Source: Bacillota bacterium (GTDB lineage Bacteria; Bacillota; Limnochordia; Darwinibacteriales; JAAYFS01). Taken from it: a stretch of DNA of 64,000 nt. The stretch lies in NCBI GenBank assembly GCA_012728115.1, contig JAAYFS010000036.1, positions 1,280 through 65,279 of the forward strand, given 5' to 3'. Of the stretch, positions 16,074-46,344 are shown one piece after another (the first letter of the stretch is position 1; each line of letters opens with the position of its first letter). The position numbers and the translations under genes are program-made. The notes under the pieces were generated by a model. The model saw only the letters and a list, made by a program, of their open reading frames with translations. It was not told the origin of the DNA and did no database searches.

Positions 16074-16469
16074 TTAGTTAGTTTTAATTTTGGTTAAGGA
16101 TTCAATAAATTCTTTGATAATCTCTGCGTCTTCAATCGCTTCTGCTACATCTCTTTCTTCAAGATCAACATGAAAAGGATATCTTACATTTACCCCGTAG
16201 TCTGTCAAGTTAATACATTCGTCCATTATCTCGATGAAGGACGAATTGTAGCGTTGACAATCGCGGTTTAGCACCACTAGATCGTGGGTTTTTCTTATTC
16301 GTGCACCACTAAAGGCAATAAACCCTTTAAGATATTTTTCGGCGGATTGTTGGCAGTGATAAGCAATGATTTCTAGCGGTTTGGGTTTCATTCTCTGTAA
16401 GTAAACTGCCGATTGTAAATCTAAATCAGCTAAGGTAAACCACTCTTTTGCAACCGCTATATTATCCAT
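16074..16469 (-). CDS. hepT: HEPN-domain toxin (HepT-like) of a HEPN/MNT type VII toxin-antitoxin pair.
   Basis: 131-aa ORF with HEPN-like core (AEKYLKGFIAF ... R-x4-6-H region). Overlaps upstream nucleotidyltransferase gene by 8 nt. Confidence 0.65.
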   Translation of the reverse strand: MDNIAVAKEWFTLADLDLQSAVYLQRMKPKPLEIIAYHCQQSAEKYLKGFIAFSGARIRKTHDLVVLNRDCQRYNSSFIEIMDECINLTDYGVNVRYPFHVDLEERDVAEAIEDAEIIKEFIESLTKIKTN

Positions 16470-16788
16470 AGACTTTCACTCCCTCCCTCTTGATCTTGTA
16501 TTCAAGCGTAGTTTTGATGCTTGCTCGCTCTATAAATTCTTCCTTGGTATAAACCAATAGGTCGACTGGATACAGAGATATTGGGGCAATTGCTTTTCTG
16601 GCACGTTTAATAAGCTCTAGGGCTTGGTTGCCGTTAGTCGTGGTTAGTATGCAAAGATCAATATCGCTATCTTCATTCGGAGAACCATAGGCGTATGAAC
16701 CAAATAAAAAGATCTCTTCGACGGGAATTACTTCGACAATTTTCTCAACTAAAGATTTTACATATTGTTCTAATTCGGGAGTCACCAA
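16462..16788 (-). CDS. mntA: Minimal nucleotidyltransferase antitoxin (MntA-like).
   Basis: 108 aa. GSYAYGSPNEDSDIDLCIL is the Pol-beta-type NTase GS...D.D motif. Confidence 0.75.
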   Translation of the reverse strand: MVTPELEQYVKSLVEKIVEVIPVEEIFLFGSYAYGSPNEDSDIDLCILTTTNGNQALELIKRARKAIAPISLYPVDLLVYTKEEFIERASIKTTLEYKIKREGVKVYG

Positions 16789-18196: not shown

Positions 18197-19017
18197 AAAA
18201 GATCGTATATCAAGGGGTTCCAGGTTCTTTTAGTGAAGAAGCCGCTATTAAATATTTCGGTGCTAAAACAGAGCGAATATCCGTTCAGTACTTTGAAGAA
18301 GTGTTCGTTGAGGTTACTGAGGGAAACGGTGAATTTGGTGTACTCCCTTTAGCAAATTCCCTGACAGGCGGAGTATATGAAGTACTAGATTTAATTAATG
18401 TGTACAACCTCTATATTGTCGGTGAAGTATATTTACCGATTAAACATCACCTACTTGGAATTCCTGGTGCGTCTATCGAGCAAATTACTGAAGTTTATTC
18501 GCATCCACAAGGTTTTCAGCAATGTTCGCGCTTTCTAACTTCTTTTTCGCAGTGGATGAAGATTCCCTACTTCAATACAGCGATCAGTGCTCAGTATATA
18601 AAAGAACAGGCCTCACCAAATAAGGCCTGTATCGCAAGCGAACGAGCAGCAGAAATATATGGTTTACAAGTGTTAAAACCTAGTATTCAAAACAATAATC
18701 ATAACTACACTCGCTTTATTATTATCGGAAAAGAAATTCTGGAATCAGACAACAATGATAAAGTAAGCATAGTGTATTCCCTACCTCATAAAGCGGGTAG
18801 TTTGTTTCAAAGTTTGTCAATCTTTTCGGTCCACGATTTAAACCTTTTGCGTTTAGAATCAAGACCGATCCCTGATCGACCTTGGGAATTTTATTTCTAT
18901 GTTGATTTTACAGGAAATCTACTGGCTGACCGCACCAGGTTTGCTCTGGAACTACTGAAGGAAAAGACTACATATTTTAAGCTACTAGGTTGCTATAAAT
19001 CTGCAGCTATTGATTGA
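18190..19017 (+). CDS. pheA: Prephenate dehydratase with C-terminal ACT domain.
   Basis: 275 aa. PDT domain (YQGVPGSFSEEAA, TRF), ACT domain at the C-terminus. Overlaps aroF by 7 nt. Confidence 0.85.
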   Translation: MLKKIVYQGVPGSFSEEAAIKYFGAKTERISVQYFEEVFVEVTEGNGEFGVLPLANSLTGGVYEVLDLINVYNLYIVGEVYLPIKHHLLGIPGASIEQITEVYSHPQGFQQCSRFLTSFSQWMKIPYFNTAISAQYIKEQASPNKACIASERAAEIYGLQVLKPSIQNNNHNYTRFIIIGKEILESDNNDKVSIVYSLPHKAGSLFQSLSIFSVHDLNLLRLESRPIPDRPWEFYFYVDFTGNLLADRTRFALELLKEKTTYFKLLGCYKSAAID

Positions 19018-19450
19018 GTGCATCAAGCACTCTTTTTACTATTTCCTTAGCTTCAGGTAGGGACATATCCCGATAGTTTCCGCATTGAATTTCATTAGCG
19101 GCGGGTACTTCAGCCGCCGCTAATATTTTATTAAGTGAGTTCTTTAAACCTTCAGCGATCTGATTTTCACAATATTCCCCGACTAGAATCAAGTAAAATC
19201 CTGTCCGACATCCCATCGGGGAAACATCGATCACGTTTGCAAATTCTTCCCGTAAAAACCCCGCAAGCAAATGCTCGATAGCATGGACAGCTCCTGTAGG
19301 CATTATTTCTTGATTTGGTTGAGTAAACCGTAAGTCAAACTTACTGATCACGTCTCCTCTAGGAGTAAGGATCCTGCCACAGTGCCTAACAAACGGAGCT
19401 TTAACTTTTGTATGGTCAAAGGTGAAACTTTCAACGATTACATTATCCAT
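19007..19450 (-). CDS. luxS: S-ribosylhomocysteine lyase (AI-2 synthase).
   Basis: HAIEHLLAGF (HxxEH metal motif) and FDHTKVKAPFVR. Start MDNV at ~19450 preceded by GGAGGAG. The ORF as called by the tool (19480) abuts the stop of the upstream fusion gene. Confidence 0.85.
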   Translation of the reverse strand: MDNVIVESFTFDHTKVKAPFVRHCGRILTPRGDVISKFDLRFTQPNQEIMPTGAVHAIEHLLAGFLREEFANVIDVSPMGCRTGFYLILVGEYCENQIAEGLKNSLNKILAAAEVPAANEIQCGNYRDMSLPEAKEIVKRVLDALNQ

Positions 19451-19480: not shown

Positions 19481-22108
19481 TTAGGCTCCGCAAGCACTCT
19501 GTCTTTCACTGATCACTTGTTGCCAAACTAAGTCATCGATTGGTCTATTAAAGCTACGAAAACCCGCTAAAATAAATCCATGTTTTTGTGCTAATTCTCG
19601 CATTTCATTTAAGTAATCGAGATTCAGATCGGCACCGATACTTGTATTTTCATAACGCTGCTCAAGACCGAGCATCATTGTTTCAGACATGCAAGCATAT
19701 GCTAGACCCTTATCGAAACCAAAATCCCAACCTAAATCAGCTTTATTTGGAGTTTCAATAACACCACCATCGATCACTAATACATCTTTCCGATTATCTA
19801 GTACTTCATCAGCAACGTTTGCTGGTCGGGAAACATCACAAACCAAAGCACCCCACTTCAAGTTGGAAGAAGTGAGCATAGCCTTTGTATTACTTGTTGC
19901 CGCTAACACTAAATCTGCTTTAGGCAACCACTTATTGAGATCTACTGTGATCTTAATTGGAAAATCTTTCTTGTCACGCAAATCTTTCACTAACTCGATC
20001 CAAGCAGTGAGCGAATCATCTTGTGTCGGTAGGTCAATTAATTTCCCGACATAATGACCAATTGCGCCTGGTGAAAATGTTACGCCTTTTTTATTCAGAT
20101 CCGAAAGATATTTAAGTATTTCAGCGGCAACCTTCAACATCCGATACTCGCTTTTTTCTGGACGTTCAGGATTACCTATTAGAATTAACTCGCTAACACT
20201 TTCAGAGAGCAATACCGCAGAGGCTTTACCGATTGCTCCGCCAGCACCAACTACAGCAGCTGTTACTTTGTTGAGATCCATTCCGAGTTTTTGTGCACCT
20301 AAAATTAACGACTCTACACACGAAACCACAGTATAAGAGTTCCCTGTCGTAATTGGAACATCAACCTTGCCTGTCAAGGATCTTCCACCCATAGTAACGA
20401 CCGAAGTATAAGCTCCTAAACCAACGATTTTTGCACCTCTTGAACGTGCTAATTCAACTGCAGCAATAATCTCCGATTGAGCTTGTTCAGATGACATTTC
20501 TACCAATTGGTCAGCGGTCCGAGGTACGACAATAAATTCGCCGTAAGCACTCTGGCCCGTCTTACTTACTATTGTGGTACTGGAAACAACAAAAGGTTCA
20601 ACCATATCATTCCAGCGGCTTGATATATCTTCTAACTGTTCATCAGTCAATACTTGTAGACTCTTATCAAATTCCGTATAGTTTTTCAGATCGAGTGGAT
20701 GAACGAGGAACGCAAACCTGCCTTCATTCGGATCATCAGATGGTTTTGCAATTTCTTTTCTGACTAATGGCTTTGGATCTTCATCGTCTGGATCTTTATA
20801 ATTCACTAAGTGACCGATTAATGCCGCTGTATTTCTATGAGCAAGCATTCTAACCGCACGCTCGATTCTGGATAATGCAGTCTCTATCTGCTCATAACTA
20901 ATGATTAATGGAGGTTCAATTCTAATTACACTAGCACCGTTTAAAGTTGGTGCAACGCGTAGATTTTCTGTATTTAGTAAGTAGCTTGAGAACAAAGGTG
21001 TCAATATTTCTTGTTCAGCCATTACCCCTAGCAAACTATCTGGATAAAGCTCGCGATCCGAACCTAAATCGATACCGATCATTAAACCGCGACCTCGAAC
21101 TTCTTTGATAATATCTGGATACTTCGCTTGGATTTTAAGCAATCCATTCTTAAGTAGTTCGCCCTTCTTTTTAACTTCTTTGATCAACTCACAGTCATTG
21201 CGAGTTAACATTTCAATCACTTTAAGACCAACGCGACAACCAATAGAATTGCCCGCAAATGTGGAGGAATGTTTATTACCGAATTCTTCTGTATATACAT
21301 CTTCGGTACATAAAACTGCTCCGATCGGTACAATTCCACCACCAAGTGCCTTGGCGAGTACCATAACATCTGGTTCTACACCTTCATCGAAACAGGCAAA
21401 CATTGTTCCTGTTCTTCCAAGTCCTGTCTGGACTTCGTCGAAGATTAATAGTGCTCCAAATTCATCACATACTTCTCTTACCGCTTTGAGATATCCTTTT
21501 GGCGGAAGAACTATACCACCCTCACCTTGGATAGGCTCGACAATAAAGGCGGCATAGTTTTCACCATTTGTCTCAAATTCCATTCGCAAAGCATTGATAT
21601 CACCAAATGGGATGTGCTTAAACCCTGTAACTGGAGCACCAAAATCCTTTTGATATCCTGTATTACCTGTAGCAGAAAGAGCACCTAAAGTTTTCCCATG
21701 GAAACTATTGGAGGTGGCGAGAATTCCGAGCTTCTTCTTTCGGGATCGAACTAATTTAATTGCTGCTTCGACTGCTTCCGCACCACTATTAGTGTATGTA
21801 ACATATTGCATATTGGCAGGAGCAATCTCAATTAACCTTTTTGCTAGTGCCCCAGCAGCCTCTAAAAAGGATGGCTGAGTAAAACTAGGTTCGAGTGAGG
21901 CCTGGATTTCGTTGATCGCCTCCCAAATTGTTGGATGATTAAAGCCAAAAGGCAGCGCTCCGTAGGCAGCGATAAAATCCAAAATCTGGTTGCCTTGATC
22001 ATCGTATAAATAACAGCCCTCACCTTTTTTGTACCTTTTGTTCATTCCAATTTCTTGCAATAACCTACCTAAGTAAGGATTGATATGTTCGACATATGGA
22101 TGCATCAT
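19481..22108 (-). CDS. Bifunctional fusion: N-terminal class-III PLP aminotransferase + C-terminal fatty acyl-ACP reductase (AAR)-like NAD(P)-dependent domain.
   Basis: N-terminal half has DEVQTGLGRTGTMFACF and Schiff-base Lys VMVLAKALGGG (class III AT). C-terminal ~400 aa aligns along its whole length with cyanobacterial acyl-ACP reductase: LGAYTSVVT~LGGFTSIIF, TTGNSYTVVSCVESLILGAQKLGMDLNKVTAAVVGAGGAIGKASAVLL~[55 protein letters not shown]~DLILTAR, VLVIDGGVIE~IYVLNGGVVE, ACMSETMMLGLE~ACFAEAMLLEFE. Start ATGATG at 22108 preceded by GGGGG. Confidence 0.75.
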   Translation of the reverse strand: MMHPYVEHINPYLGRLLQEIGMNKRYKKGEGCYLYDDQGNQILDFIAAYGALPFGFNHPTIWEAINEIQASLEPSFTQPSFLEAAGALAKRLIEIAPANMQYVTYTNSGAEAVEAAIKLVRSRKKKLGILATSNSFHGKTLGALSATGNTGYQKDFGAPVTGFKHIPFGDINALRMEFETNGENYAAFIVEPIQGEGGIVLPPKGYLKAVREVCDEFGALLIFDEVQTGLGRTGTMFACFDEGVEPDVMVLAKALGGGIVPIGAVLCTEDVYTEEFGNKHSSTFAGNSIGCRVGLKVIEMLTRNDCELIKEVKKKGELLKNGLLKIQAKYPDIIKEVRGRGLMIGIDLGSDRELYPDSLLGVMAEQEILTPLFSSYLLNTENLRVAPTLNGASVIRIEPPLIISYEQIETALSRIERAVRMLAHRNTAALIGHLVNYKDPDDEDPKPLVRKEIAKPSDDPNEGRFAFLVHPLDLKNYTEFDKSLQVLTDEQLEDISSRWNDMVEPFVVSSTTIVSKTGQSAYGEFIVVPRTADQLVEMSSEQAQSEIIAAVELARSRGAKIVGLGAYTSVVTMGGRSLTGKVDVPITTGNSYTVVSCVESLILGAQKLGMDLNKVTAAVVGAGGAIGKASAVLLSESVSELILIGNPERPEKSEYRMLKVAAEILKYLSDLNKKGVTFSPGAIGHYVGKLIDLPTQDDSLTAWIELVKDLRDKKDFPIKITVDLNKWLPKADLVLAATSNTKAMLTSSNLKWGALVCDVSRPANVADEVLDNRKDVLVIDGGVIETPNKADLGWDFGFDKGLAYACMSETMMLGLEQRYENTSIGADLNLDYLNEMRELAQKHGFILAGFRSFNRPIDDLVWQQVISERQSACGA

Positions 22109-22128
22109 ATTTCCCCCTAACATCGTTG

Positions 22129-22144
22129 AGCACAAAGTTGTGCA
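22129..22144. promoter_or_regulatory. Palindromic candidate operator at the predicted transcription start of the fusion gene.
   Basis: GCACAA-AG-TTGTGC perfect 6-2-6 inverted repeat. A third TGCACAA half-site lies just upstream of the -35 (22181-22187). Confidence 0.35.
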
Positions 22145-22151
22145 CACAGTT

Positions 22152-22180
22152 ATTATATCAATTCAGTTTGGGAAATACAA
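22152..22180 (-). promoter_or_regulatory. Putative sigma-A promoter of the fusion gene.
   Basis: Minus-strand TTGTAT (22180-22175) - 17 nt - TATAAT (22157-22152). Confidence 0.4.
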
Positions 22181-22202
22181 TGCACAAATTTGGATTAATT
22201 GT

Positions 22203-22235
22203 AAAAAAATCGCCCTATTGAGTAATCAATAGGGC
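22203..22235 (-). terminator. Intrinsic terminator after the FMN-binding protein gene.
   Basis: GCCCTATTGA-GTAA-TCAATAGGGC perfect 10-bp stem followed (minus strand) by T7. Confidence 0.7.
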
Positions 22236-22255: not shown

Positions 22256-22657
22256 TTACAAAACTCCTGTTAAGGCATTATTTACTGCCTCAATGATAGC
22301 TTTACTAGTAAATGTTGCATTCGTAACAACATCAACTCCATCGGTGCCTTGGTTTTCGATAATTCGAGTTGGAATTTGTTCAAATGCTGGATCAGAAACG
22401 CCTGGAGTTTCATTATGCTCTAAGATATTGATTTTAACGATTTCTCCATTATCAACAAGTACTTCAAGTTTAACTGGACCGATAAATCCTTTTGCTTCAC
22501 CAATGTATTTTTGTGCACCTGCGGTTTTTAAAGCAGGATCGTTAATTTGAATTGCCAATCCAATCGCAAGCCCAATTATTACGCCAAGCAAGATAAGTGA
22601 AATAACAGTTGTAGTTTTGTAGAACATTTCTCTCCTCCTATTAAGGGTATTAATCAA
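22256..22657 (-). CDS. Membrane-anchored FMN-binding domain protein.
   Basis: 133 aa with an N-terminal TM helix and a C-terminal FMN_bind-type motif (TGATFTSKAIIEAVNNAL). Confidence 0.6.
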   Translation of the reverse strand: MINTLNRRREMFYKTTTVISLILLGVIIGLAIGLAIQINDPALKTAGAQKYIGEAKGFIGPVKLEVLVDNGEIVKINILEHNETPGVSDPAFEQIPTRIIENQGTDGVDVVTNATFTSKAIIEAVNNALTGVL

Positions 22658-22693
22658 TAGATCTTTATTCGGTAGTTAGTTGCTATCTCCTTC

Positions 22694-23560
22694 TCAAATC
22701 ACTAGACAAAAAATCCAAATCGAGCCGAAAACTGCATGAAGTTTTGCGGTCTGGATATCTATGTCATAAAAAATTTGAGATTTGCATCTCCTGATGTTCA
22801 TTAAAGCGACAGGGATGGTAAGGAATACTAATCCAGTGATTATCGGAACTAGTTTCATTAAAATCAGCCAAAAAACCGCGATATATGTTGCGCATAGAAA
22901 GGCCGAATAAAGACAAACCCCTTTTCCCAAACCCATTAGTTTAGCGATCGTGATTATTTTTATATCTGTTTCAATATCACGTAAATCATTTCCGTGAAGA
23001 ATCGCTGTTACTAGAAATGCAATGGGTAGTGAAGTCCATAAAAGCATTGATGAAAACTCGCCTGTAAGTGCATAATACACAGCTTGACTAAGAACAGGAC
23101 CAAATAAAAGGAACACAACAAATAAACCTAGTCCACGATACTTTAGTTCGCATGGTGGAGCGGTGTAATAATATGCACCCGAGATCCCTACCGCGCTAAA
23201 GACTATCACCCAATAACGTTGATAGACAACTGCAAAAGCGATTGACATCAGGAAAAACAAAACCATAACACTTTGTCCAACATGCAAAGCCAGTTTCGGA
23301 GAGATCCTGCCTTCAATCAGGACTTGACTCGCCGCTAGCACATCAGGTTGGTCTATTCCATTCGTACAATCAAAGAATTCATTTAATATATTTGATGCAC
23401 AATGGAGCAACAAAACGCAAAAAAGAATTGAAATAAAGAGCGCATCGCTAAAATTTCCATTTAAGTATGCCGTAATGCCACCAAGAAATACTGGAACAAT
23501 TGATGCGCTCCAAGAAAACGGACGTGAAATTTCTAACCAATTCTTTAATCCATTCATCAA
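22694..23560 (-). CDS. UbiA-family aromatic prenyltransferase (MenA/UbiA-like).
   Basis: 288 aa, 8-9 TM segments. Asp-rich motifs NEFFDCTNGID and RDIETD. Confidence 0.65.
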   Translation of the reverse strand: MMNGLKNWLEISRPFSWSASIVPVFLGGITAYLNGNFSDALFISILFCVLLLHCASNILNEFFDCTNGIDQPDVLAASQVLIEGRISPKLALHVGQSVMVLFFLMSIAFAVVYQRYWVIVFSAVGISGAYYYTAPPCELKYRGLGLFVVFLLFGPVLSQAVYYALTGEFSSMLLWTSLPIAFLVTAILHGNDLRDIETDIKIITIAKLMGLGKGVCLYSAFLCATYIAVFWLILMKLVPIITGLVFLTIPVALMNIRRCKSQIFYDIDIQTAKLHAVFGSIWIFCLVI

Positions 23561-23622
23561 ATCGCCGACTCCTTGAGAAAAAAGTCATTTCATTTTAATG
23601 TACCCAAGGATGTACGATTTAT

Positions 23623-24987
23623 TTAAAACTCAAAAAAACCTTCCCGAATTACTTCGCACACCGTCGGGTGTGGGAACACTAACTTCTTAATATCTTCCAA
23701 CTTCATCTTAGTATCAACCAAGATTCCAGCCCCATAAATGATCTCTGATGTATAACTTCCGATCATATGGACACCAACAATTGTTTGGGTTTCTTTATTC
23801 AAAAGAATCTTGCAGATTCCATCTCCGCCTTCGTTTTCAGCCATGTAACGACCACTATAACGCATTGAAATAGTGATTGAATCAACATCAATACCTGCTT
23901 CTTTGGCACTTTGTTCGGTGTGTCCTACGGATGCTACTTCTGGATTGGTGTAAATCACATTGGGAATTGCATCGTAATTAACTTCATCGACGTCGCCCAA
24001 TATCGTGTTTACTACTACTTCCGCTTCGCGATACGCTGTATGAGCTAGCATCGAACGACCATTAACATCGCCAGCTGCATAAACATTAGGTACATTTGTT
24101 CGTCCTGAGCCATCAACTATGATTGCACCATTTTGTACTTCTACCCCAATCGTTTCTAAACCAAGGCCATTAACTACTGGCTTTCTACCAGTACTGATTA
24201 ATACTTTATCCGTTTCGACAGAAACGGTTTCTCCATCCACCTGATAAATGACTTTTGAATCCTCGATACCAGTGACTCTTGAGTTGAGGTGGAAGGTAAT
24301 CCCCGCTTTTTGATAGTTCTTCAAAAGAATATTTGAGATATCTGCATCTATATAACCGCCAACATGGTCCAACATTTCAATAACGGTTACTTTACTACCA
24401 GCCGAGTTAAAATACGAGGCCATTTCTAAACCGATTACTCCACCGCCGATAATTACCAGTTTTTCTGGGATCTCTTCAATATCAAGAATTTCTCGATTTG
24501 TAAGTACAAAGCCGCTTTCTAAGCCTTCTTTTAGTCCTGGAATAGGTGGAATAGCAGGTAATGAACCAGTGGCAATCAATAGATTGGTTCCAGAATATAC
24601 ATTACCATCAACACTAACGTTAATTCCATTCTCATCCCGTCCTTGAATTTCAGCTTCCCCTTCAAGAACATCTACTTCATTTTTCTTTAGTTTGCTTTTG
24701 ATACCAGATACCAACATTCTAACGATCTTATTCTTCCGTTTAAGCACTGTCGCATGATCGAAACTTACTTTTTCGGATTTGACTCCATATTTTTCACTAA
24801 ACCGCGCATAATCATAAATTTTGGCTGAATGGAGCAAAGTTTTCGATGGGATACAACCTTCATTTAAACATACTCCGCCCAAAGCACGCTTCTCAATTAC
24901 CAAGGTTTTTAATTTAGCTTGCCCAGCTCGCTCAGCCGCTAGGTAACCCGCTGGACCTCCACCGATAACTATTAAATCGTAACTCAA
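23623..24987 (-). CDS. lpdA: Dihydrolipoyl dehydrogenase (E3).
   Basis: [13 protein letters not shown] motif, redox disulfide [14 protein letters not shown]-terminal HPT..E dimerisation motif. Confidence 0.9.
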
Positions 24988-25868
24988 TCCATCTCCTCCT
25001 TTGTATTTAAAAGTTTTTCAGAAACTTTTTCTGCATGATACGAACTTCGAACAAGTGGTGCACTGGCTACATATTTAAAGCCGTATTCCTCACCTACTTT
25101 TTTGTAGTACTCGAACTCTTCAGGTGAAACATATTCGATTACAGGGTGGTGTTTTGCGGACGGAGCAAGATATTGCCCGATCGTCATTAAATCACAATCC
25201 ACAGCCCGTAAATCTTTCAGGGTTTGTAATACTTCCTCTTTTTGTTCTCCAAGCCCCAAAATAATCCCAGATTTCGTATGAATAGAAGAGTCCAATTCCT
25301 TTACACGGGCTAGAAGTTCTAAAGATCGTTCGTAAATTGCTTGTGGCCTTACTTTCGGATACAAACGCGGAACGGTTTCCACATTATGGTTAATAATCTC
25401 AGGTTTAGCGGCTGCTACTGTCTGAAGAGCTGCTAAAGATCCATTAAAATCAGGAATTAATACTTCTACGATAATGCTACTATCCATATCTTTTATCGCT
25501 CGGATCACCTTCGCAAATTGGGAGGCCCCGCCGTCCTCAAGATCATCTCTTGATACTGAAGTGATCACAACGTGTTTAAGTTTTAATTGGGCGACTGCTT
25601 GAGCGACATGTTCTGGTTCGAGTGGATCCACTGCTAAGGGAGTGGACTGGTTCTTTTCTACATTACAAAAAGTACATTTCCTGGTACAAATTCTTCCTAG
25701 AATCATAAATGTAGCGGTCCTCTTTCCGAAACACTCTACTATATTGGGGCATTTTGCTTCTTGGCATACCGTATGTAAAGAGAGTTTGTTTAGCATCTCT
25801 TTGACCTCAAGGGAGTGTTCGTTTGAGCGATATCCAACTCTCAGCCAACTAGGTTTTCGCTTATACAT
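24984..25868 (-). CDS. lipA: Lipoyl synthase (radical SAM).
   Basis: CPN..EC auxiliary cluster motif and [10 protein letters not shown] radical-SAM CxxxCxxC. 4-nt overlap with lpd. Confidence 0.9.
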
Positions 25869-26563
25869 TGGTCAGTAACTCCTTTCTCTTTGAATAGACT
25901 GGCTAGTTCATCAACCGTTAGCCATTGTGGTATTAAATCAAAGACCTCACAAAATTTTTGACTGAGTTTAAGCATCACTGCCTTGAGATCTTGCTTTTGT
26001 CCAAGCAGTTTCTCAAGTGAAGTTGTTCCTCGGTCGGTTATTCCACATGGAGTAATCCAATTAAAGTGCGTTAAGTTGGTATTTACATTCAAGGCAAATC
26101 CATGCATACTAACCCAGCGTTTGATAGCAAAACCGATCGCTGTAATTTTGTCATTCCCAACCCAAACTCCAGTATACTGCGGGTCTCTTACAGCTTCAAT
26201 ACTATAATCTTTAAGAAGTTGGATAAACACTTCTTCTATATTGAAAATAAATTTTCGCACACTCTTTCCATGTAGTTTTAGATCCATGATCGGATAACCA
26301 ACTATTTGACCAGGACCATGGTATGTAACATCGCCTCCCCGATTTGTGGTCACCAATGACGCACCTAGAGCTTTAAGCTGTTGTTGGGTTAGATGAACAT
26401 GTGAAGTCTGACCACGCTTCCCCATTGTTATAACAGGTGGATGTTCAAGTAAGAGAAGAATATCATCGATAGCATTTTCTTGCCTAAGTTCCAAAAGAAT
26501 TTCCTGTAGTCTAAACGCAACGTTATATTCAATTAGTCCTAAAGATACAATTTGCAAATTCAT
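25841..26563 (-). CDS. lipB: Octanoyltransferase (lipoyl(octanoyl) transferase) LipB.
   Basis: 240 aa. [14 protein letters not shown], the LipB signature around the catalytic region. Confidence 0.8.
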
Positions 26564-26675: not shown

Positions 26676-27104
26676 ATGGAGACAATTTGCCGAATCCTCA
26701 CCAAAGAAGAATTTAACTCAGCATTATCAATTCGTTTAAAGGTTTTTGTTGACGAACAAAATGTTCCTCTCGAAGAAGAACGCGATCATTATGATGATTC
26801 CGCTATTCACTTTGGCGCTTTTGTAAGTGACACAATGGTAGCCACAGGCCGTTTAATAATCCTTGACGATAACACAGGAAAAATCGGTCGTATGGCGGTT
26901 CTGAGAGAATACCGTGGTTTAGGTATTGGACTTACCTTACTTAATTCACTTATCCACGAATGTCGGCGCCTAGGCTTAAAAGAGGCTATCTTAAGTGCCC
27001 AGCTCCAAGCAATTCCGTTCTATGAAAAAGCAGGTTTTACAGCTCATGTAGGAATCTACGATGATGCAGGTATCCCTCATCGAACCATGACCTTGTGTCT
27101 CTAA
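26676..27104 (+). CDS. GNAT-family N-acetyltransferase.
   Basis: 142 aa. Acetyl-CoA motif A RMAVLREYRGLGIGLTLL. Confidence 0.7.
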   Translation: METICRILTKEEFNSALSIRLKVFVDEQNVPLEEERDHYDDSAIHFGAFVSDTMVATGRLIILDDNTGKIGRMAVLREYRGLGIGLTLLNSLIHECRRLGLKEAILSAQLQAIPFYEKAGFTAHVGIYDDAGIPHRTMTLCL

Positions 27105-27874
27105 TTCCGTTTTAAGATCAATAAATCGATCGCAATTAGCGTTAAAAAGGCAACTACTGCAGGCAAGACTGATTGTAACGCCCAAGTAGAATCAAACGCT
27201 CGGATGGAGCCAAGAATTAATCCAGCGAGGACTGCTTTGGTTCCATTCGGATAATTTTTTAATAGCAGGCTAAGTAAATGAGCCAAAGCTAATAACCCAA
27301 CCAATGCCCCAATTCCGAATGGGAGTAGAATCCCAAGATTGAGGTCTTGAACAGCTTCTAAGATTAATTCATAACTATTAAATATAATTAAAACGGTTGT
27401 ACCACTTATTCCAGGGATCAACATCGCAGCACTCGCAATTGCACCCACAAAGACTAGGGTAATTGCTTGAGGAGCTTGAAACGAACTATTAAAGTCGGAG
27501 ATGATATCCGAAAACATAAACATGATTAGGAAGCTGAGAAAGAAAATAATCCATACTTCCCGCCTTGCTTTTGCATCTTGTACTCCTTTAATAATGATCA
27601 TGGCGGATGCTAAGATAAAGCCAAGAATAGCACCGTTTGCTTCGAGCGGATAGGTATCGAGGAAATATGTCACTATCGATGAGCCAAGGTAGATACTCAA
27701 GCAAAGGCTAAGAATAAATGGTAGTAATTTTTTTAGCTTTACCCTTTTTATCGCATCGATCAACTCGTTATAAATACCTAGAATTAATGCCATATTACTA
27801 CCACTAATTCCAGGAACTAAATTAATAAATCCGATCGGTATTCCATAGAGTAGCCATTGAATAAAAGTCTTCAT
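27101..27874 (-). CDS. DUF368-family membrane protein (PopT-like putative undecaprenyl-phosphate translocase).
   Basis: Characteristic duplicated PGISGS motif (NLVPGISGSNMALILG ... MLIPGISGTTVLIIF). Start likely MKTFIQ at ~27874. Confidence 0.65.
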   Translation of the reverse strand: MKTFIQWLLYGIPIGFINLVPGISGSNMALILGIYNELIDAIKRVKLKKLLPFILSLCLSIYLGSSIVTYFLDTYPLEANGAILGFILASAMIIIKGVQDAKARREVWIIFFLSFLIMFMFSDIISDFNSSFQAPQAITLVFVGAIASAAMLIPGISGTTVLIIFNSYELILEAVQDLNLGILLPFGIGALVGLLALAHLLSLLLKNYPNGTKAVLAGLILGSIRAFDSTWALQSVLPAVVAFLTLIAIDLLILKRN

Positions 27875-27920
27875 TTTTGCGTGGCTCCTTTTGCTAAAAT
27901 GCTGTATTTTGGAGGTCATT

Positions 27921-28721
27921 ATGAAGCGTCTAATAATAGGCACGTTTCTTATTCTCTTAATCCTGATTGTCCCTTATGAGACGGGATATGCTAAATCGAT
28001 TCAAACACAAATACCTTCGTTTACTGAGTTAGGACGTTATGTGCTAGCAAGTAAAACTTTAACTAGCTCTTTTATTCAATCACTTTCAGAACGAGATGGT
28101 CTAAAATTAGAGAAGTTACTACATTCTTCCCTACCTACGGAAGGAACTCTAAACAACCTTTTAGATATTCCCTGGTTTATTGAGAAATTCCTGTATGAAG
28201 AAAAAGAACTTCATATTTTTGATGATACAATTCGAATCAAGGTGGCACTTACGCCAATTGTTAATCCAGTTATTATAGAACACTATTCCTATTACGATCT
28301 CGAACTAGCATGGGTTATCGAAGGCACAGAATTAGTCATATCAAACTTAGCTTTGCAGCCTGTTTTGGAAAGCGACATTAACTTGGATCCACAAATCGCT
28401 CAAAATATCGAGAAAGCCTTAAAAAATTGGCTCTCCGTTCTAATTAAGAATGTCAATGAGGAAAACAAAGAACTACTTGCAGCAAGTTTTGTAGAACCGA
28501 ATGAGAGAAGCTCTCTTATTTTAGATTTCTTTGAGTCGTTCAATCCGATCACGGAATTTAAACTCTTAAGATATAGGTTGGCCGATGAAATAGAAGTTGA
28601 GCTGAATTTTTATGCTAGAGACGATATTATTGTGAGAACTCGGTTATACATAATTCCCACTGGATCAAATTGGATGATTAAGGATTTAATAGCATTCCCT
28701 CTCTGGAAAGTAAAACATTAA
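27921..28721 (+). CDS. Secreted hypothetical protein (signal peptide).
   Basis: MKRLIIGTFLILLILIV signal-like N-terminus. No recognised domain. Confidence 0.45.
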   Translation: MKRLIIGTFLILLILIVPYETGYAKSIQTQIPSFTELGRYVLASKTLTSSFIQSLSERDGLKLEKLLHSSLPTEGTLNNLLDIPWFIEKFLYEEKELHIFDDTIRIKVALTPIVNPVIIEHYSYYDLELAWVIEGTELVISNLALQPVLESDINLDPQIAQNIEKALKNWLSVLIKNVNEENKELLAASFVEPNERSSLILDFFESFNPITEFKLLRYRLADEIEVELNFYARDDIIVRTRLYIIPTGSNWMIKDLIAFPLWKVKH

Positions 28722-44595: not shown

Positions 44596-45597
44596 TTATG
44601 CAAGAAGTCTTAATTTTTCTTCCGTAATTTCCCACATTAACGGTTTTCCGTTAAGATAGCGTTCCAGCTCTTCAACTATGTACCTTCCCATTCGCCTACA
44701 TTCGCCGTTTAAAGACCCAGCGATATGAGGCATCAAAACTACATTGTCCAAATCGTATAAAGGGGAATCTGGCAATGGAGGTTCTGGCCAGGTCACATCT
44801 AAAACAGCCAGTAAATCAGGGCGTTTTTGCAAAACAGCAATCATTTCTTTTTCGTTCACTATCGCGCCCCGAGCTGTGTTAATAAAGGAAGCATTCTCTT
44901 TCATTACCTCAAAATGATTACCTCTTATCATGTTCTCTGTTTCTTTTAACCACGGTGAATGAAGTGATACCACATCTGAAAAACGAAATATATCCTCTAG
45001 CGAACACAATTCCACATTTAAGCGTTTTGCTTCTTCTTTAGATACGAATGGGTCATATGCAAGAATTTTTAAATCATAATTTCGTAATAATTCACATACT
45101 TGGCGAGCGATCATTCCCAGCGATATTAAACCAACAGTTGATCCATAAGCCCCTGTCACTTCGATTCTGGCAGGATACTTTTTATTTCGTTTTATCTCTA
45201 AAGCATATTGCCAAGCCCTTTTTAGACAAAAAATCAATTGCGACACGGTGAACTCAGCTACAGGAATGGCGTTAGCAGCGTAAGCACTGGTTATGCGGAT
45301 ACCTCTTTGCCAAAAGGCCTCGGTAACCACATTACGAATTGAACCCGCTCCATAAAAAACTGCCCTGAGTTTTGGGGCTGCAGCCAAGAATTTTCGATCC
45401 ATTCGTGGACAACCCCATCCAGACAGAATTATTTCTACGTCTTTAAGAAGCTCGAGGTTTTGATAGATACTCTGTGTTGTTTGGGGCGGGGCGATAATTT
45501 CAACCATTTCCTCAATATTTGCTCTTTCCTCTTCGCCATAGATCTTTTGGAAACTATCCGATCCAAGAATGTATAGTCCCTTTACCACAATAAACAC
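44596..45597 (-). CDS. D-isomer-specific 2-hydroxyacid dehydrogenase (glyoxylate/hydroxypyruvate reductase-like).
   Basis: NAD-binding GAYGSTVGLISLGMIARQV (GxGxxG) and catalytic R/E/H triad region (TARGAIV ... MPHIAG). Confidence 0.75.
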   Translation of the reverse strand: MFIVVKGLYILGSDSFQKIYGEEERANIEEMVEIIAPPQTTQSIYQNLELLKDVEIILSGWGCPRMDRKFLAAAPKLRAVFYGAGSIRNVVTEAFWQRGIRITSAYAANAIPVAEFTVSQLIFCLKRAWQYALEIKRNKKYPARIEVTGAYGSTVGLISLGMIARQVCELLRNYDLKILAYDPFVSKEEAKRLNVELCSLEDIFRFSDVVSLHSPWLKETENMIRGNHFEVMKENASFINTARGAIVNEKEMIAVLQKRPDLLAVLDVTWPEPPLPDSPLYDLDNVVLMPHIAGSLNGECRRMGRYIVEELERYLNGKPLMWEITEEKLRLLA

Positions 45598-45753
45598 ATC
45601 CCATTTACTATTTTGCTATTTATAATCAACACATACCGTAGAGATTTTTATTAAAAAAGTCTATCTGTTCGAGAAAAGATCTTTAGTAATTAATTCCCAG
45701 TTGTTTTTTCCTATGCTATAATAAAAGCAATAAATGCTCGAGGTTGGATACGG

Positions 45754-46344
45754 ATGAAAAAACGATCGGCAATCATCTTGGCTGGTGGTAAAAACACACG
45801 AATGGGTATCAACAAAGCGTTTCTAAAAGTAAATCAAACCAAGATTATCGATTATCAAGTCGACACCTTGCGTTCTTTATGCGATGAAGTGATCATAGTT
45901 ACAAATAAACCCGAGGACTTCGAATATCTTGGTGTTTCTCTTATCGAAGATTTGATTAAGGATAGAGGTCCGTTATCTGGCATCTACTCTGGCCTCTCGG
46001 TAGCCACATCGCCTTACGCATTGGTAATGGCTTGTGATATGCCATATCTTGATCGAAAGCTTATCGAGTTTATGTTCAAGGAATGTTCTGGATACGATGC
46101 AGTAGTTCCAGTGAGCTATAGACATCTTCAGCCCTTACATGCAATTTATTCAAAAAATTGTTTAAAACCAATAATTGCCAGTGTGGAAAATCTTACTCTC
46201 AAGGTAAGTTCTTTTTATAATCAAGTTTCAGTCAGATATATTTCCGAAACGGAAATAAAAAATTTTGTTAATCCAGAACGAGCATTCTTTAATATCAACA
46301 CACCCGACGATCTTAGACTATATCTTCAAAGGTTCTCCAATTAA
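45754..46344 (+). CDS. mobA: Molybdenum cofactor guanylyltransferase.
   Basis: AIILAGGKNTRMG N-terminal nucleotide-binding motif. 196 aa. Confidence 0.8.
   Translation: MKKRSAIILAGGKNTRMGINKAFLKVNQTKIIDYQVDTLRSLCDEVIIVTNKPEDFEYLGVSLIEDLIKDRGPLSGIYSGLSVATSPYALVMACDMPYLDRKLIEFMFKECSGYDAVVPVSYRHLQPLHAIYSKNCLKPIIASVENLTLKVSSFYNQVSVRYISETEIKNFVNPERAFFNINTPDDLRLYLQRFSN

What the first reader, a model, noticed from the sequence alone, without database searches (positions are those of the whole stretch)
19481..22108. Fusion of class-III aminotransferase and acyl-ACP reductase: candidate fatty-amine synthase
One 875-aa polypeptide joins a complete class-III PLP transaminase (DEVQTGLGRTG, Lys in VLAKALGGG) to a C-terminal ~400-aa domain. 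That domain aligns residue-for-residue with cyanobacterial fatty acyl-ACP reductase (AAR), including the NAD(P) loop VGAGGAIG~VGATGDIG and the flanking blocks. AAR reduces acyl-ACP to a fatty aldehyde. A fused omega-transaminase would be expected to convert that aldehyde to a primary alkylamine. This mirrors the TamH thioester-reductase/transaminase logic of tambjamine biosynthesis, but uses an AAR-type rather than an SDR-type reductase. I am not aware of a characterised enzyme with this architecture. The gene has its own promoter and a palindromic operator, and is immediately followed by luxS.
Basis: partly seen in the sequence, partly recalled or inferred. Interest (0 to 1): 0.85.

Follow-up and report, generated by a model that had tools for sequence, protein, structure and literature searches.

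The report
Known-type transaminase–acyl-ACP-reductase fusion enzyme
The gene really does fuse a PLP transaminase to a cyanobacterial-type acyl-thioester reductase, but this architecture is already described (TamH, KecF/PP_2782 and the Thermaerobacter/Thermincola 'TAm fusions'), so it is a new member of a known enzyme family whose natural substrate in Bacillota is still unknown.

Summary
The ORF at 19481-22108 (minus strand, 875 aa) has a class-III aminotransferase domain (residues 25-419, PLP Lys253). After a ~43-residue linker comes an AAR-like domain (463-875) with the VGAGGAIG loop and catalytic Cys806.

The C-domain scores far better to PigE-N and AAR than to GluTR or shikimate DH. Its AlphaFold model matches SeAAR first (E 3e-21).

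The novelty claim fails. TamH is an N-terminal transaminase fused to a C-terminal AAR-type reductase, not an SDR, and with TamA it converts C12 fatty acid to C12 amine (PMC9594044). KecF/PP_2782 and the Bacillota enzymes TmFusion, TsFusion and TfFusion share this architecture, and their transaminase halves have been assayed (PMC10829540). The window protein is ~53% identical to TsFusion. It is also 50% identical over 870 aa to the TA-AAR part of an adenylase-ACP-TA-AAR megaenzyme.

The most likely function is NAD(P)H-dependent reduction of a carrier-bound acyl thioester to an aldehyde, followed by Glu-dependent amination to a primary amine.

The window has no adenylase, ACP or PKS, and the luxS adjacency is species-specific. 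The gene is vertically inherited in a Limnochordia-like lineage. Its native substrate and physiological role remain open.

Verdict: new member of a known kind; modest interest.

The parts
19481..22108 (-). CDS of the bifunctional transaminase / AAR-type thioester reductase (875 aa plus stop). Alternative start ATG 22105 gives 874 aa, as in NLY11170.1. The upstream GTG at 22147 is unlikely to be the start.
20852..22036 (-). Class-III (omega) aminotransferase domain, residues 25-419. Nearest solved relatives are YgjG putrescine aminotransferase and the PigE TA domain.
   Evidence: Pfam Aminotran_3 E 3.4e-98; PDB 5H7D/4UOX E ~5e-93 and 4PPM E 3e-84
21350..21352 (-). Codon of Lys253, the PLP Schiff-base lysine in VLAKALGGG
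   Evidence: motif conserved in TmFusion and TsFusion
20723..20851 (-). Inter-domain linker, residues 420-462. It is acidic and proline-rich (…YKDPDDEDPKPLVRKEIAKPSDDPNE).
   Evidence: lies between the Pfam TA boundary and the start of the PigE-N/AAR match
19484..20722 (-). AAR-type (COG5322) NAD(P)H-dependent thioester reductase domain, residues 463-875
   Evidence: NCBIfam PigE-N 177.6 bits and TIGR04058 99.8 bits; PDB phmmer; AF2 model plus Foldseek top hit SeAAR E 3e-21
20228..20251 (-). Dinucleotide-binding loop VGAGGAIG (residues 620-627), equivalent to SeAAR 162-GATGDIG-168
   Evidence: G-A-x-G-x-I-G invariant in 49/49 fusions
19691..19693 (-). Codon of Cys806, the predicted acyl-enzyme nucleophile (equivalent to SeAAR Cys294 and TamH Cys887) within the invariant A-C-M-x-E-T motif
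   Evidence: invariant in 49/49 fusions
22152..22180 (-). Putative sigma-70-type promoter: -35 TTGTAT (22175-22180), 17-nt spacer, extended -10 TGaTATAAT (22152-22160)
   Evidence: read from the sequence; not picked up by the consensus scanner because the -35 has only 3/6 matches; inferred
22133..22192 (.). 12-nt inverted repeat (CAAATTTGTGCA / TGCACAACTTTG, 92% complementary, 36 nt apart) bracketing the promoter. It includes the 8-bp palindrome TGTGCACA. Possible operator, untested.
   Evidence: half-site not enriched in the window
22113..22117 (-). Shine-Dalgarno GGGGG, 4 nt upstream of ATG 22108
22203..22235 (-). Intrinsic terminator of the upstream FMN_bind gene (10-bp perfect stem, 4-nt loop, T-run). 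This is the strongest palindrome near the gene and separates it from the upstream operon.
19007..19450 (-). luxS (S-ribosylhomocysteine lyase, 147 aa), 30 nt downstream with its own RBS and no intervening terminator. Probably co-transcribed, but the adjacency is species-specific.

Best explanation
The gene encodes a bifunctional enzyme of the TamH / KecF / 'TAm-AAR fusion' family.

Proposed mechanism:
1. The C-terminal AAR-type domain takes an acyl group from a phosphopantetheine thioester onto Cys806. The thioester is most likely an acyl carrier protein, possibly CoA.
2. It reduces the acyl-enzyme with NAD(P)H to release an aldehyde. NADH is the more likely cofactor.
3. The N-terminal class-III PLP transaminase (Lys253) converts the aldehyde to a primary amine, using an amino acid donor such as L-glutamate.

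The net reaction is acyl-S-carrier to primary alkylamine. The acyl chain is most probably a medium- or long-chain aliphatic one. This genome shows no dedicated adenylase or ACP nearby, so the substrate would come from an ACP or CoA pool supplied in trans.

Shown here: the domain identities, the catalytic residues and the family relationships. Inferred: the reaction direction, the substrate class, the cofactor and the physiological product.
For: Domain identity.

Catalytic residues: the catalytic Cys, His (SeAAR H7), T-T-G-N and G-A-x-G-x-I-G motifs are invariant in 49/49 fusions.

Characterised homologues with the same architecture:
- PtTamH with TamA converts C12 acid to C12 amine, is NADH-dependent and needs the acyl-ACP form (PMC9594044; bioRxiv 2025.08.11.669332).
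- TmFusion, TsFusion and TfFusion transaminase domains prefer long or aliphatic aldehydes with L-Glu as donor (PMC10829540).
- The window is 52.9% identical to TsFusion over its full length and 59.8% to the TmFusion TA domain.

Rosetta-stone fusions and operons:
- Adenylase-ACP-TA-AAR polypeptides: L057, L058, P0253, P0258, P0261, P0281, P0301. P0253 is 50% identical to the window protein over 870 aa.
- TA-AAR-adenylase polypeptides: P0257, P0260, at 44-46% identity.
- A FAAL-ACP gene or a FAAL-PKS gene lies directly upstream in L062 and L060.
- Alkaliphilus has the TA and the AAR-like protein as adjacent separate genes (L081).

Phylogeny: an NJ tree places the window in a Bacillota clade with TsFusion, sister to the FAAL/ACP-linked fusions.

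Cofactor hint: only one of SeAAR's three 2'-phosphate arginines is retained (R189/R193/R314 become N/R/A), which fits NADH use as in TamH (PMC7089970).
Against: - There is no adenylase, ACP, PKS or lipid-metabolism gene in the 64-kb window (tblastn; ACP motif scan; Pfam). None accompanies the ~870-aa fusions of the window's clade.
- Reductase activity has never been demonstrated for any Bacillota member. Only transaminase assays were done.
- PtTamH did not accept acyl-CoA, so a suitable carrier must exist but is unidentified here.
- The TA domain's nearest solved relative is a diamine (putrescine) aminotransferase.
- An invariant Arg/Lys replaces SeAAR's acyl-tunnel residue Tyr247. This substitution is shared with the FAAL-ACP-linked relatives, so it is not discriminating.
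Confidence: 0.6

Rival explanations
1. Same enzyme chemistry, but the native substrate is not a fatty acyl chain. It would be a short or polar thioester of primary metabolism, such as a dicarboxyl-, amino- or keto-acyl-CoA/ACP. The product would then be a small amino compound (an omega-amino acid, diamine or similar) needed as a housekeeping metabolite.
For: - The gene is a vertically inherited singleton among housekeeping genes, with macro-synteny to Limnochordia loci.
- No lipid, ACP or FAAL genes are nearby.
- In some relatives dap genes lie next to it (dapB in L006; dapF plus a DegT/class-I-type aminotransferase in L001).
- Stand-alone AAR-like genes sit in the coaX-dus-lysS housekeeping region.
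- The TA domain is closest to putrescine, acetylornithine and ornithine aminotransferases.
- An invariant Arg/Lys lies at the SeAAR Tyr247 tunnel position.
- The thermophilic orthologues also accepted 6-aminohexanoate and aromatic amines.
Against: - The closest multidomain relatives are fused to fatty-acyl-AMP-ligase-type adenylases.
- The orthologous TA domains prefer long aliphatic aldehydes.
- The Arg/Lys at the Tyr247 position is also present in the FAAL-ACP-linked members.
- The dap adjacency is confined to one related lineage, so it is not independent evidence.
Confidence: 0.17
2. The enzyme works in the opposite, catabolic direction. The YgjG-like transaminase deaminates a primary amine or diamine to an aldehyde. 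The AAR-type domain then oxidises the aldehyde, through a Cys806 thiohemiacetal with NAD+, to an acyl-enzyme that is passed to CoA or hydrolysed. This would be a fused PatA/PatD-like amine-degradation enzyme.
For: - The TA domain's best solved match is putrescine aminotransferase, E ~5e-93; NCBIfam putrescine aminotransferase scores 367 bits.
- Both half-reactions are chemically reversible.
- The NADPH-specific arginines are lost, and the related TAD domain binds NAD(H) rather than NADP(H).
- No acyl-activating partner is present in this genome.
Against: - Every characterised or genetically studied relative runs reductively: TamH, PigE, KecF and AAR.
- Repeated fusion to adenylating enzymes and ACPs only makes sense in the reductive direction.
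- The putrescine aminotransferase model scores well below its cutoff, 367 against 612.
Confidence: 0.1
3. The C-terminal domain does not act as a reductase. It would perform TAD-like chemistry (thioester off-loading as an amide) or be a regulatory or structural NAD-binding module. The protein would then function only as a transaminase.
For: - The Foldseek second-best group is the carmabin terminal amidation domain, E ~1e-18, which shares the Cys and T-T-G motifs.
- The truncated TA-only derivatives of the orthologues are fully active transaminases.
- Reductase activity is undemonstrated in Bacillota members.
Against: - Sequence similarity to PigE-N and AAR is far stronger (E 1e-30 and 2e-16) than to TAD (E 2e-3).
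- The TAD-specific Asp-Asp-Ser-Gly-cisPro loop was not examined here, and TAD's own activity is unproven.
- Strict conservation of the Cys and the NAD loop across 49 fusions argues for catalysis.
- Fusion to a transaminase requires an aldehyde intermediate.
Confidence: 0.06
4. The gene is a tailoring enzyme of a prodiginine, tambjamine or koreenceine-like alkaloid gene cluster.
For: - The best NCBIfam hit is PigE.
- KecF and TamH are cluster-encoded.
- The 2024 paper noted antiSMASH NRPS/PKS clusters elsewhere in the thermophiles' genomes.
Against: - The PigE score of 567 is well below its cutoff of 850, and the domain order is reversed.
- No PKS, NRPS, ACP or pyrrole genes occur in 64 kb.
- Identity to PP_2782 is only 30%.
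- The gene is syntenic and vertically inherited in its lineage.
Confidence: 0.03

Closest known systems
TsFusion / TmFusion (ThesuDRAFT_00745, Tmar_2123; Thermaerobacter) and TfFusion (Tfer_2018; Thermincola) - 'natural transaminase fusions', RSC Adv 2024 (PMC10829540)
   Same: - Same phylum and same TA-linker-AAR architecture, of similar length.
- 52.9% identity over the full length to TsFusion, 59.8% to the TmFusion TA domain, 46% to the TmFusion C-domain, and 41% to TfFusion (the literature sequences are OCR text, so these are lower bounds).
- The catalytic Cys and the NAD loop are conserved.
- The window groups with TsFusion in the same NJ clade.
   Different: - The source is a mesophilic-type MAG with ~40% GC.
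- TmFusion has a ~100-aa longer linker and insert.
- Several relatives in that clade carry an upstream HTH187 and P309 operon that the window lacks.
- Only the transaminase halves of the published enzymes were assayed, so nothing on reductase activity transfers.
PtTamH (tambjamine YP1 pathway, Pseudoalteromonas tunicata; PMC9594044)
   Same: - N-terminal class-III omega-TA plus a C-terminal AAR-type thioester reductase with a catalytic Cys and GxxGxxG.
   Different: - TamH sits in a biosynthetic gene cluster with its dedicated loader TamA (adenylase-ACP).
- The published identity of TamH to the Bacillota fusions is only 28-32%.
- TamH is 941 aa.
- The window gene has no cluster and no loader.
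KecF / PP_2782 (koreenceine-type type II PKS clusters, Pseudomonas; PMC6498172, PMC10829540)
   Same: TA plus a COG5322 (AAR-like) domain in the same order. It is proposed to release an ACP-bound polyketide reductively and then transaminate it.
   Different: - 30% identity to the window protein.
- Embedded in a FAS/PKS cluster.
- Its NAD loop is partly degenerate (GAAGNVA).
- Its product cyclises to tetrahydropyridine alkaloids.
PigE (prodigiosin MAP pathway; PDB 4PPM; PMC8341465)
   Same: It has the same two domain families. The window's C-domain matches the PigE N-domain better than any other solved-structure sequence (E 1.4e-30). PigE performs thioester reduction followed by transamination.
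   Different: - The domain order is circularly permuted (AAR-like at the N-terminus, TA at the C-terminus).
- The NCBIfam PigE equivalog score is 567, below the cutoff of 850.
- Its substrate is a 3-acetyloctanoyl thioester within a pigment cluster.
Cyanobacterial acyl-ACP reductase (SeAAR, TIGR04058; PDB 6JZQ/6JZU/6JZY; PMC7089970)
   Same: - Same three-subdomain fold (Foldseek E 3e-21, TM 0.77-0.79 on the target).
- Cys294, His7, T-T-G-N and the G-A-T-G-x-I-G loop are conserved.
- Ping-pong acyl-enzyme mechanism.
   Different: - About 21-22% identity; 99.8 bits against a cutoff of 449.7.
- SeAAR is a stand-alone enzyme that hands its aldehyde to ADO, not to a transaminase.
- The NADPH 2'-phosphate Arg triad is not conserved in the window protein (N/R/A).
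- Tyr247 is replaced by Arg.
- The window domain has an extra ~60-residue insert after the NAD-binding beta-alpha-beta unit.
Adenylase-ACP-TA-AAR and TA-AAR-adenylase megaenzymes (uncharacterised; L057, L058, P0253, P0257, P0260 and others)
   Same: The TA-AAR portion is 44-50% identical to the window protein over ~870 aa, with the same catalytic motifs.
   Different: They carry their own carboxylate-activating domain, with or without a carrier domain, in cis. They occur mostly outside Bacillota (Entotheonellaceae, Thermoanaerobaculia and others).
CarI terminal amidation domain (TAD; PDB 9E4S and related entries; bioRxiv 10.1101/2024.10.28.620694)
   Same: It belongs to the AAR superfamily fold, with an invariant Cys next to the nicotinamide and a T-T-G motif. 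It accepts a carrier-protein-tethered substrate.
   Different: - Only 16-17% identity; phmmer E 2e-3.
- It is the terminal domain of NRPS modules.
- Its proposed role is to produce amides.
- It is not fused to a transaminase.

Membership tests
TA-AAR bifunctional fusion family (TamH / KecF / PP_2782 / TmFusion type) | N-terminal class-III PLP aminotransferase domain with the Schiff-base lysine | tested here: met
   Aminotran_3 E 3.4e-98, residues 25-419; Lys253 in VLAKALGGG
TA-AAR bifunctional fusion family (TamH / KecF / PP_2782 / TmFusion type) | C-terminal AAR-fold (COG5322) domain with a GxxGxxG-type NAD(P) loop and the catalytic cysteine equivalent to SeAAR Cys294 | tested here: met
   Cys806 and VGAGGAIG
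TA-AAR bifunctional fusion family (TamH / KecF / PP_2782 / TmFusion type) | Domain order TA then AAR in one polypeptide, with full-length homology to published members | tested here: met
   52.9% identity over 871 residues to TsFusion, 41% to TfFusion, 30% to PP_2782
TA-AAR bifunctional fusion family (TamH / KecF / PP_2782 / TmFusion type) | Coupled thioester reduction and transamination activity on a carrier-bound acyl substrate | not testable with these tools
   Needs enzymology. Shown only for PtTamH.
TA-AAR bifunctional fusion family (TamH / KecF / PP_2782 / TmFusion type) | Dedicated acyl-loading partner (adenylase-ACP, or a FAS/PKS cluster) encoded next to the gene. This is typical of TamH and KecF but not of the Bacillota members. 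| tested here: not met
   No adenylase or ACP in 64 kb (Pfam)
Cyanobacterial long-chain acyl-ACP reductase (TIGR04058 equivalog) | Score at or above the curated cutoff of 449.7 bits | tested here: not met
   99.8 bits
Cyanobacterial long-chain acyl-ACP reductase (TIGR04058 equivalog) | Catalytic Cys294 and the dinucleotide loop | tested here: met
Cyanobacterial long-chain acyl-ACP reductase (TIGR04058 equivalog) | NADPH 2'-phosphate pocket R189/R193/R314 | tested here: not met
   The aligned residues are N/R/A (landmarks from PMC7089970)
Cyanobacterial long-chain acyl-ACP reductase (TIGR04058 equivalog) | Partnership with aldehyde-deformylating oxygenase (ADO) | not tested
   No ADO query was run. 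No ferritin-like ADO gene was seen among the annotated neighbours.
PigE (NF053554 equivalog) | Score at or above 850 bits and AAR-like-then-TA domain order | tested here: not met
   567 bits in 3 stretches. The TA domain maps to profile positions 381-730 and the C-domain to 1-193, so the order is permuted.
Putrescine aminotransferase (NF008570 / TIGR03372) | Score at or above the curated cutoff (612 / 658.65 bits) | tested here: not met
   367 and 323 bits
   hemA 18 bits against AAR 99.8 and PigE-N 177.6; Pfam Shikimate_DH 23.6 bits, below its cutoff of 24.3; neither appears in the Foldseek top 50
NRPS terminal amidation domain (TAD) | Close sequence relationship to the CarI TAD and a location at the end of an NRPS module | tested here: not met
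   phmmer E 2e-3 only; 16-17% identity; no NRPS present

The most novel reading that the evidence does not exclude
In anaerobic and thermophilic Bacillota, the TA-AAR fusion is not a secondary-metabolite tailoring enzyme. The same would hold for the related operon of HTH187, P309 and a stand-alone or fused AAR-like gene. Instead it would be a vertically inherited primary-metabolic pathway. It would draw on a housekeeping acyl-ACP or acyl-CoA pool, without a dedicated loader, to make free alkylamines or another amine for the cell envelope or for signalling. That would be a class of Firmicute metabolites that has not been described. The uncharacterised P309 protein ('quinate 5-dehydrogenase' by annotation only) would be its missing partner.
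Probability: 0.25. Interest if true: 0.6.

Novelty: new member of a known kind. Interest (0 to 1): 0.3.

Why it matters
As found, it matters little. It adds one more Bacillota member to a TA-AAR fusion family whose logic (reductive release, then transamination) is already published and is already being explored for biocatalytic fatty-acid-to-amine conversion.

Two points have residual value:

1. Open physiological role. The survey shows the family is large: 1,402 clusters at 50% identity reach E <= 1e-30. In Bacillota it behaves like a housekeeping singleton with no loader, and no reductase activity or native substrate has been demonstrated for any such member.

2. A conserved, uncharacterised operon. 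HTH187, P309 and an AAR-like gene co-occur in many Bacillota, and the TA-AAR pair is repeatedly fused to adenylases. Together these give concrete handles for finding the substrate.

A loader-independent enzyme that accepts bulk acyl-ACP or acyl-CoA would also be more useful for biocatalysis than TamH, which requires TamA.

Tried and rejected
- Riboswitch or leader upstream of the gene. An Rfam gathering-threshold scan of the window and four homologous loci found only an unrelated T-box far downstream in L027.
- luxS as a functional partner. luxS, FMN_bind and UbiA are adjacent to the fusion only in the window's own species.
- A universally conserved neighbour. Clustering neighbours across 54 fusion loci gave only lineage-specific synteny blocks.
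- Adenylase or ACP in the window. tblastn with the L057 adenylase and ACP domains found nothing, and an ACP motif scan gave one spurious antisense hit.
- The truncated 533-aa 'homologue' P0076 as a sign of a split gene. It and the other fragments come from 1-2x coverage assemblies; an intact 875-aa copy exists in L088.
- Operator motif enrichment. AAWTTGTGCA is not over-represented: 14 matches against 14.9 expected.
- Function of P309. No Pfam, NCBIfam or PDB sequence match. The AF2 model gives only weak fold matches, TM <= 0.46, to AAR, amino-acid dehydrogenases and sugar-binding proteins.
- Using the invariant Arg at the SeAAR Tyr247 position to argue for a charged substrate. Rejected, because the FAAL-ACP-linked relatives share it.
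- dap-gene adjacency as a lysine-pathway clue. It is seen only in closely related Limnochordia-type loci, so it is not independent evidence.
- One look-up of encoding contigs, for the SbcC-like 1184-aa protein, found nothing.

Full report
OBSERVATION

The ORF is real. It lies on the minus strand at 19481..22147 at its maximal extent. The ATG at 22108 gives 875 aa. A GGGGG Shine-Dalgarno sits 4 nt upstream of that ATG. A near-identical public protein, NLY11170.1 from an uncultured Bacillota MAG, is 874 aa, which corresponds to the next ATG. It lies next to the same luxS gene, NLY11169.1.

Pfam finds Aminotran_3 over residues 25-419 with E 3.4e-98.

The C-terminal half was scanned alone.
- It matches the N-terminal 193 positions of NCBIfam's PigE model at 177.6 bits, E 3.9e-52.
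- It matches the cyanobacterial AAR model TIGR04058 at 99.8 bits, E 1.9e-28.
- hemA reaches only 18 bits, and Pfam Shikimate_DH stays below its threshold.
- Against PDB sequences the best matches are PigE (4PPM, residues 2-348, E 1.4e-30) and SeAAR (6JZQ, E 1.7e-16).
- The window's YACMSET aligns with SeAAR's FACFAEA, so Cys806 corresponds to Cys294.

An AlphaFold2 model of residues 456-875 is confident (pLDDT 86, pTM 0.85). Its best Foldseek matches in the PDB are all SeAAR entries (E 3e-21, TM 0.77-0.79 on the target). Next comes the carmabin 'terminal amidation domain'. The next-best fold after that has E 1e-6, and no GluTR or shikimate dehydrogenase appears in the top 50.

Two details were overstated. 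The similarity to AAR is about 21-22% identity with insertions, not 'residue-for-residue'. The obvious perfect palindrome upstream (22212-22235, followed by a T-run) is the intrinsic terminator of the preceding FMN_bind gene.

A plausible promoter does exist downstream of that terminator. It has an extended -10 (TGaTATAAT, 22152-22160) and a weak -35 (TTGTAT). A 12-nt inverted repeat brackets it, but its half-site is not enriched in the window.

IS THE ARCHITECTURE NEW?

No.

PMC9594044 (ACS Catal 2022) describes PtTamH as an N-terminal class-III omega-transaminase fused to a C-terminal domain that 'can be confidently classified as an AAR'. That domain has GxxGxxG, has Cys887 equivalent to SeAAR Cys294, and superimposes on 6JZY. 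Together with TamA (adenylase-ACP), TamH converts C12 fatty acid into C12 amine. It did not accept acyl-CoA, and a 2025 preprint summarises it as NADH-dependent.

PMC6498172 describes KecF of the koreenceine cluster as aminotransferase plus COG5322, and proposes the same two steps.

PMC8341465 shows PigE to be the permuted version, with the AAR-like domain at the N-terminus and the TA at the C-terminus.

Most directly, PMC10829540 (RSC Adv 2024) cloned PP_2782 and three Bacillota fusions: Thermaerobacter marianensis Tmar_2123, T. subterraneus ThesuDRAFT_00745 and Thermincola ferriacetica Tfer_2018. It mapped their Cys onto SeAAR Cys294 and measured their transaminase activity. They preferred long or aliphatic aldehydes, with L-Glu as donor. 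Reductase activity was not tested.

Using the sequences in that paper's supplement, I compared them with the window protein:
- TsFusion: 52.9% identical over the full length.
- TmFusion: 59.8% in the TA domain and 46% in the C-domain.
- TfFusion: 41%.
- PP_2782: 30%.
- SeAAR: 22%.

The literature sequences are OCR text, so these identities are lower bounds.

FAMILY SURVEY

Scanning species-representative genomes with a C-domain alignment gave 80 loci. ORF analysis shows the following.
- About 50 TA-AAR fusions of ~870 aa. Most are in Bacillota: Limnochordia, Syntrophomonadaceae, Peptococcaceae, Symbiobacteriaceae, Halanaerobiales, Dethiobacteria and the cultured Brassicibacter mesophilus. Others are in Corallococcus and Pseudomonas.
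- Stand-alone AAR-like genes of ~360 aa, at 35-38% identity.
- Giant versions of 1,600-1,780 aa.

Pfam shows that L057 and L058 are AMP-binding, PP-binding, Aminotran_3 and AAR-like domains in one chain. In L062 a FAAL-ACP gene lies directly upstream of the fusion, and in L060 a FAAL-PKS gene does.

An exhaustive profile search of 1.84 billion representatives found 3,517 clusters with E <= 1e-3, of which 1,402 reach E <= 1e-30. The best 150 include:
- further adenylase-ACP-TA-AAR proteins (P0253, P0258, P0261, P0281, P0301);
- a recurrent ~1,400-aa TA-AAR-adenylase class (P0257, P0260);
- a 2,624-aa FAAL-AONS-FAAL-ACP-TA-AAR protein (P0282);
- an AAR-adenylase protein (P0349).

The window protein is 50% identical over 870 residues to the TA-AAR part of P0253, and 44-46% identical to the TA-AAR-adenylase proteins. 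These repeated fusions are strong guilt-by-fusion evidence. They indicate that the TA-AAR unit processes acyl groups activated by an adenylating enzyme and held as thioesters.

In Alkaliphilus (L081) the two activities are adjacent separate genes.

A neighbour-joining tree of the C-domains places the window in a Bacillota clade with TsFusion. That clade is sister to the FAAL/ACP-linked fusions. The stand-alone genes, TfFusion, PP_2782 and PigE lie further out, with SeAAR as outgroup (a crude tree without support values).

CATALYTIC COMPETENCE

I mapped the SeAAR landmarks from PMC7089970 onto the alignment.
- Cys294, His7, the T-T-G-N motif and the G-A-x-G-x-I-G loop are invariant in 49 of 49 fusions.
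- The three arginines that hold NADPH's 2'-phosphate (R189, R193, R314) are N, R and A in the window and in most fusions. The stand-alone AAR-likes keep R, K/R and R. This hints at NADH use, as reported for TamH.
- SeAAR's tunnel residue Tyr247 is an invariant Arg/Lys in the fusions. The FAAL-ACP-linked members share this substitution, so it does not argue against fatty substrates.

GENOMIC CONTEXT OF THE WINDOW GENE

The upstream genes on the same strand are lipB, lipA, an lpdA-like flavoprotein, a UbiA/MenA-like prenyltransferase and a small FMN_bind protein, which ends in the terminator described above. The fusion follows, then luxS 30 nt downstream. On the other side are pheA, a DAHP synthase, a nucleotidyltransferase/HEPN pair, proB and proA.

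The rest of the window holds housekeeping genes: a molybdenum-cofactor cluster, SbcCD, PGI, a Zn ABC transporter, LexA and others.

No adenylase, ACP, PKS or lipid gene is present.

The gene order Amidase_3, PNP_UDP_1, PGI, ABC, pseudouridine synthase, Gate, VCA0040-like, fusion matches Limnochordia-type loci L001 and L006, where the fusion proteins are 61-66% identical to the window's. The gene is therefore a vertically inherited chromosomal gene, and GC content is uniform across it.

The luxS, FMN_bind and UbiA adjacency is unique to this species. Rfam finds no regulatory RNA near the gene.

In other Bacillota lineages two small genes recur directly upstream. One is an HTH protein of ~187 aa. 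The other is a ~309-aa protein that NCBI calls 'quinate 5-dehydrogenase', although it has no Pfam, NCBIfam or PDB relative. They precede both the fusions and the stand-alone AAR-like genes. A confident model of P309 gives only weak matches, to AAR, amino-acid dehydrogenases and sugar-binding proteins. The window lacks both genes within its 64 kb.

MECHANISM

Best explanation (confidence about 0.6). An acyl thioester, on an ACP or possibly CoA, transfers its acyl group to Cys806. NAD(P)H, probably NADH, reduces the acyl-enzyme to an aldehyde. The aldehyde passes to the PLP domain (Lys253), which aminates it from L-Glu to give a primary amine. The chain is probably medium- or long-chain aliphatic, and the carrier is supplied in trans.

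What is shown: the domains, the catalytic residues, and homology to characterised enzymes. What is inferred: the direction, the substrate class, the cofactor and the product.

Rivals:
- A short or polar primary-metabolic thioester as substrate (0.17).
- The reverse, catabolic direction, suggested by the YgjG-like TA domain and the absence of a loader (0.10).
- A non-reductive, TAD-like or regulatory C-domain (0.06).
- Membership of an alkaloid gene cluster (0.03, effectively rejected).

VERDICT

This is a new member of a known kind.

What remains open is the native substrate and role of the loader-less Bacillota members, and the function of the co-occurring P309/HTH187 module. Both would need experiments.

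Interest 0.3. The most novel reading still allowed is a primary-metabolic alkylamine pathway in Firmicutes, with probability about 0.25 and interest 0.6 if true.

Noticed in passing
L004 8433-9951; L017 7097-8568; L028, L039, L040, L041, L055, L061; stand-alone cases L070, L071, L073, L078, L080, L085 (about 8.5-10 kb in each locus): A conserved operon of an HTH protein (~187 aa), P309 (~305 aa, annotated 'quinate 5-dehydrogenase' but with no Pfam, NCBIfam or PDB relative and more than 8,000 homologues) and an AAR-like gene. It precedes either the TA-AAR fusion or a stand-alone ~360-aa AAR-like gene in many Bacillota. The AF2 model of P309 (pLDDT 88) has only weak fold matches (TM <= 0.46), to AAR, Glu/Leu dehydrogenases and sugar-binding proteins. 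Function unknown. The module is absent from the window.
   Followed up: partly
L057 4293-9086; L058 6503-11317; proteins P0253, P0258, P0261, P0281, P0301: Single polypeptides of ~1,530-1,600 aa with AMP-binding (FAAL-like), PP-binding, Aminotran_3 and AAR-like domains. This is TamA and TamH fused into one chain, a complete predicted carboxylic-acid-to-amine enzyme. I found no description of this architecture in the papers I read.
   Followed up: partly
proteins P0257, P0259, P0260, P0266, P0274, P0288, P0290 (~1,400 aa); P0349 (949 aa); P0282 (2,624 aa): Further architectures of the family. One is TA-AAR followed by an acyl-CoA-synthetase-type adenylase with no carrier domain. Another is AAR-adenylase without a TA. 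The third is a FAAL, AONS-like aminotransferase, FAAL-ACP and TA-AAR giant.
   Followed up: partly
L066 5762-11104: A 1,780-aa Polyangia protein has TA-AAR at its C-terminus. Its ~950-aa N-terminal region gives only a weak FemAB_like hit and is otherwise unassigned.
   Followed up: no
L081 1665-4173 (Alkaliphilus peptidifermentans DSM 18978): A split version: a separate class-III aminotransferase (472 aa) is followed 2 nt later by a stand-alone AAR-like gene (362 aa). This is a cultured organism in which the two-step pathway could be dissected genetically.
   Followed up: partly
window 22203-22235 (minus strand): A textbook intrinsic terminator (10-bp perfect stem GCCCTATTGA/TCAATAGGGC, 4-nt loop, T-run) ends the upstream lipB-lipA-lpdA-UbiA-FMN_bind gene string.
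   Followed up: yes
window 22256-26563 (minus strand): An unusual same-strand gene string: lipB, lipA, a dihydrolipoamide-dehydrogenase-like flavoprotein, a UbiA/MenA-like prenyltransferase (scoring below the menA cutoffs) and a small secreted-looking FMN_bind protein (RnfG-like domain). The string is not seen next to the fusion in any other locus.
   Followed up: no
window 16074-16788 (minus strand): Overlapping nucleotidyltransferase (108 aa) and HEPN (131 aa) genes, a typical HEPN/MNT toxin-antitoxin pair, inserted between proB and the aromatic amino-acid genes.
   Followed up: no
window 44596-52600: A molybdenum-cofactor biosynthesis cluster: moaA, moaC, MOSC, mog-like, two MoeA paralogues (one fused to a PBP-like domain) and mobA.
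   Followed up: no
window 54771-57780 (minus strand): A Hist_deacetyl-family protein (443 aa, possibly an acetylpolyamine amidohydrolase or deacetylase) next to a hydantoinase_A-like protein (557 aa). The combination is unexplained.
   Followed up: no
L089, L090; proteins P0076, P0121-P0129: Public copies of this gene from assemblies at 1-2x coverage are broken into 2-4 fragments (for example 521 + 266 aa). As a result, a 533-aa 'C-terminal only' protein is the representative of the 90% cluster that contains the intact 874/875-aa proteins. This is an annotation artefact, not a natural split.
   Followed up: yes
L027 17571-17822 (Brassicibacter mesophilus): A T-box leader (129 bits) lies ~6 kb downstream of the fusion gene and appears unrelated to it.
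   Followed up: no
window 27101-27943 and L006 9150-9953: A VCA0040-like (DUF368, undecaprenyl-phosphate translocase-like) gene lies immediately upstream of the fusion in the Limnochordia locus L006. In the window it is ~5 kb upstream, with the lip/UbiA/FMN_bind string inserted between. It may be simple synteny or a hint of an envelope-related role.
   Followed up: no
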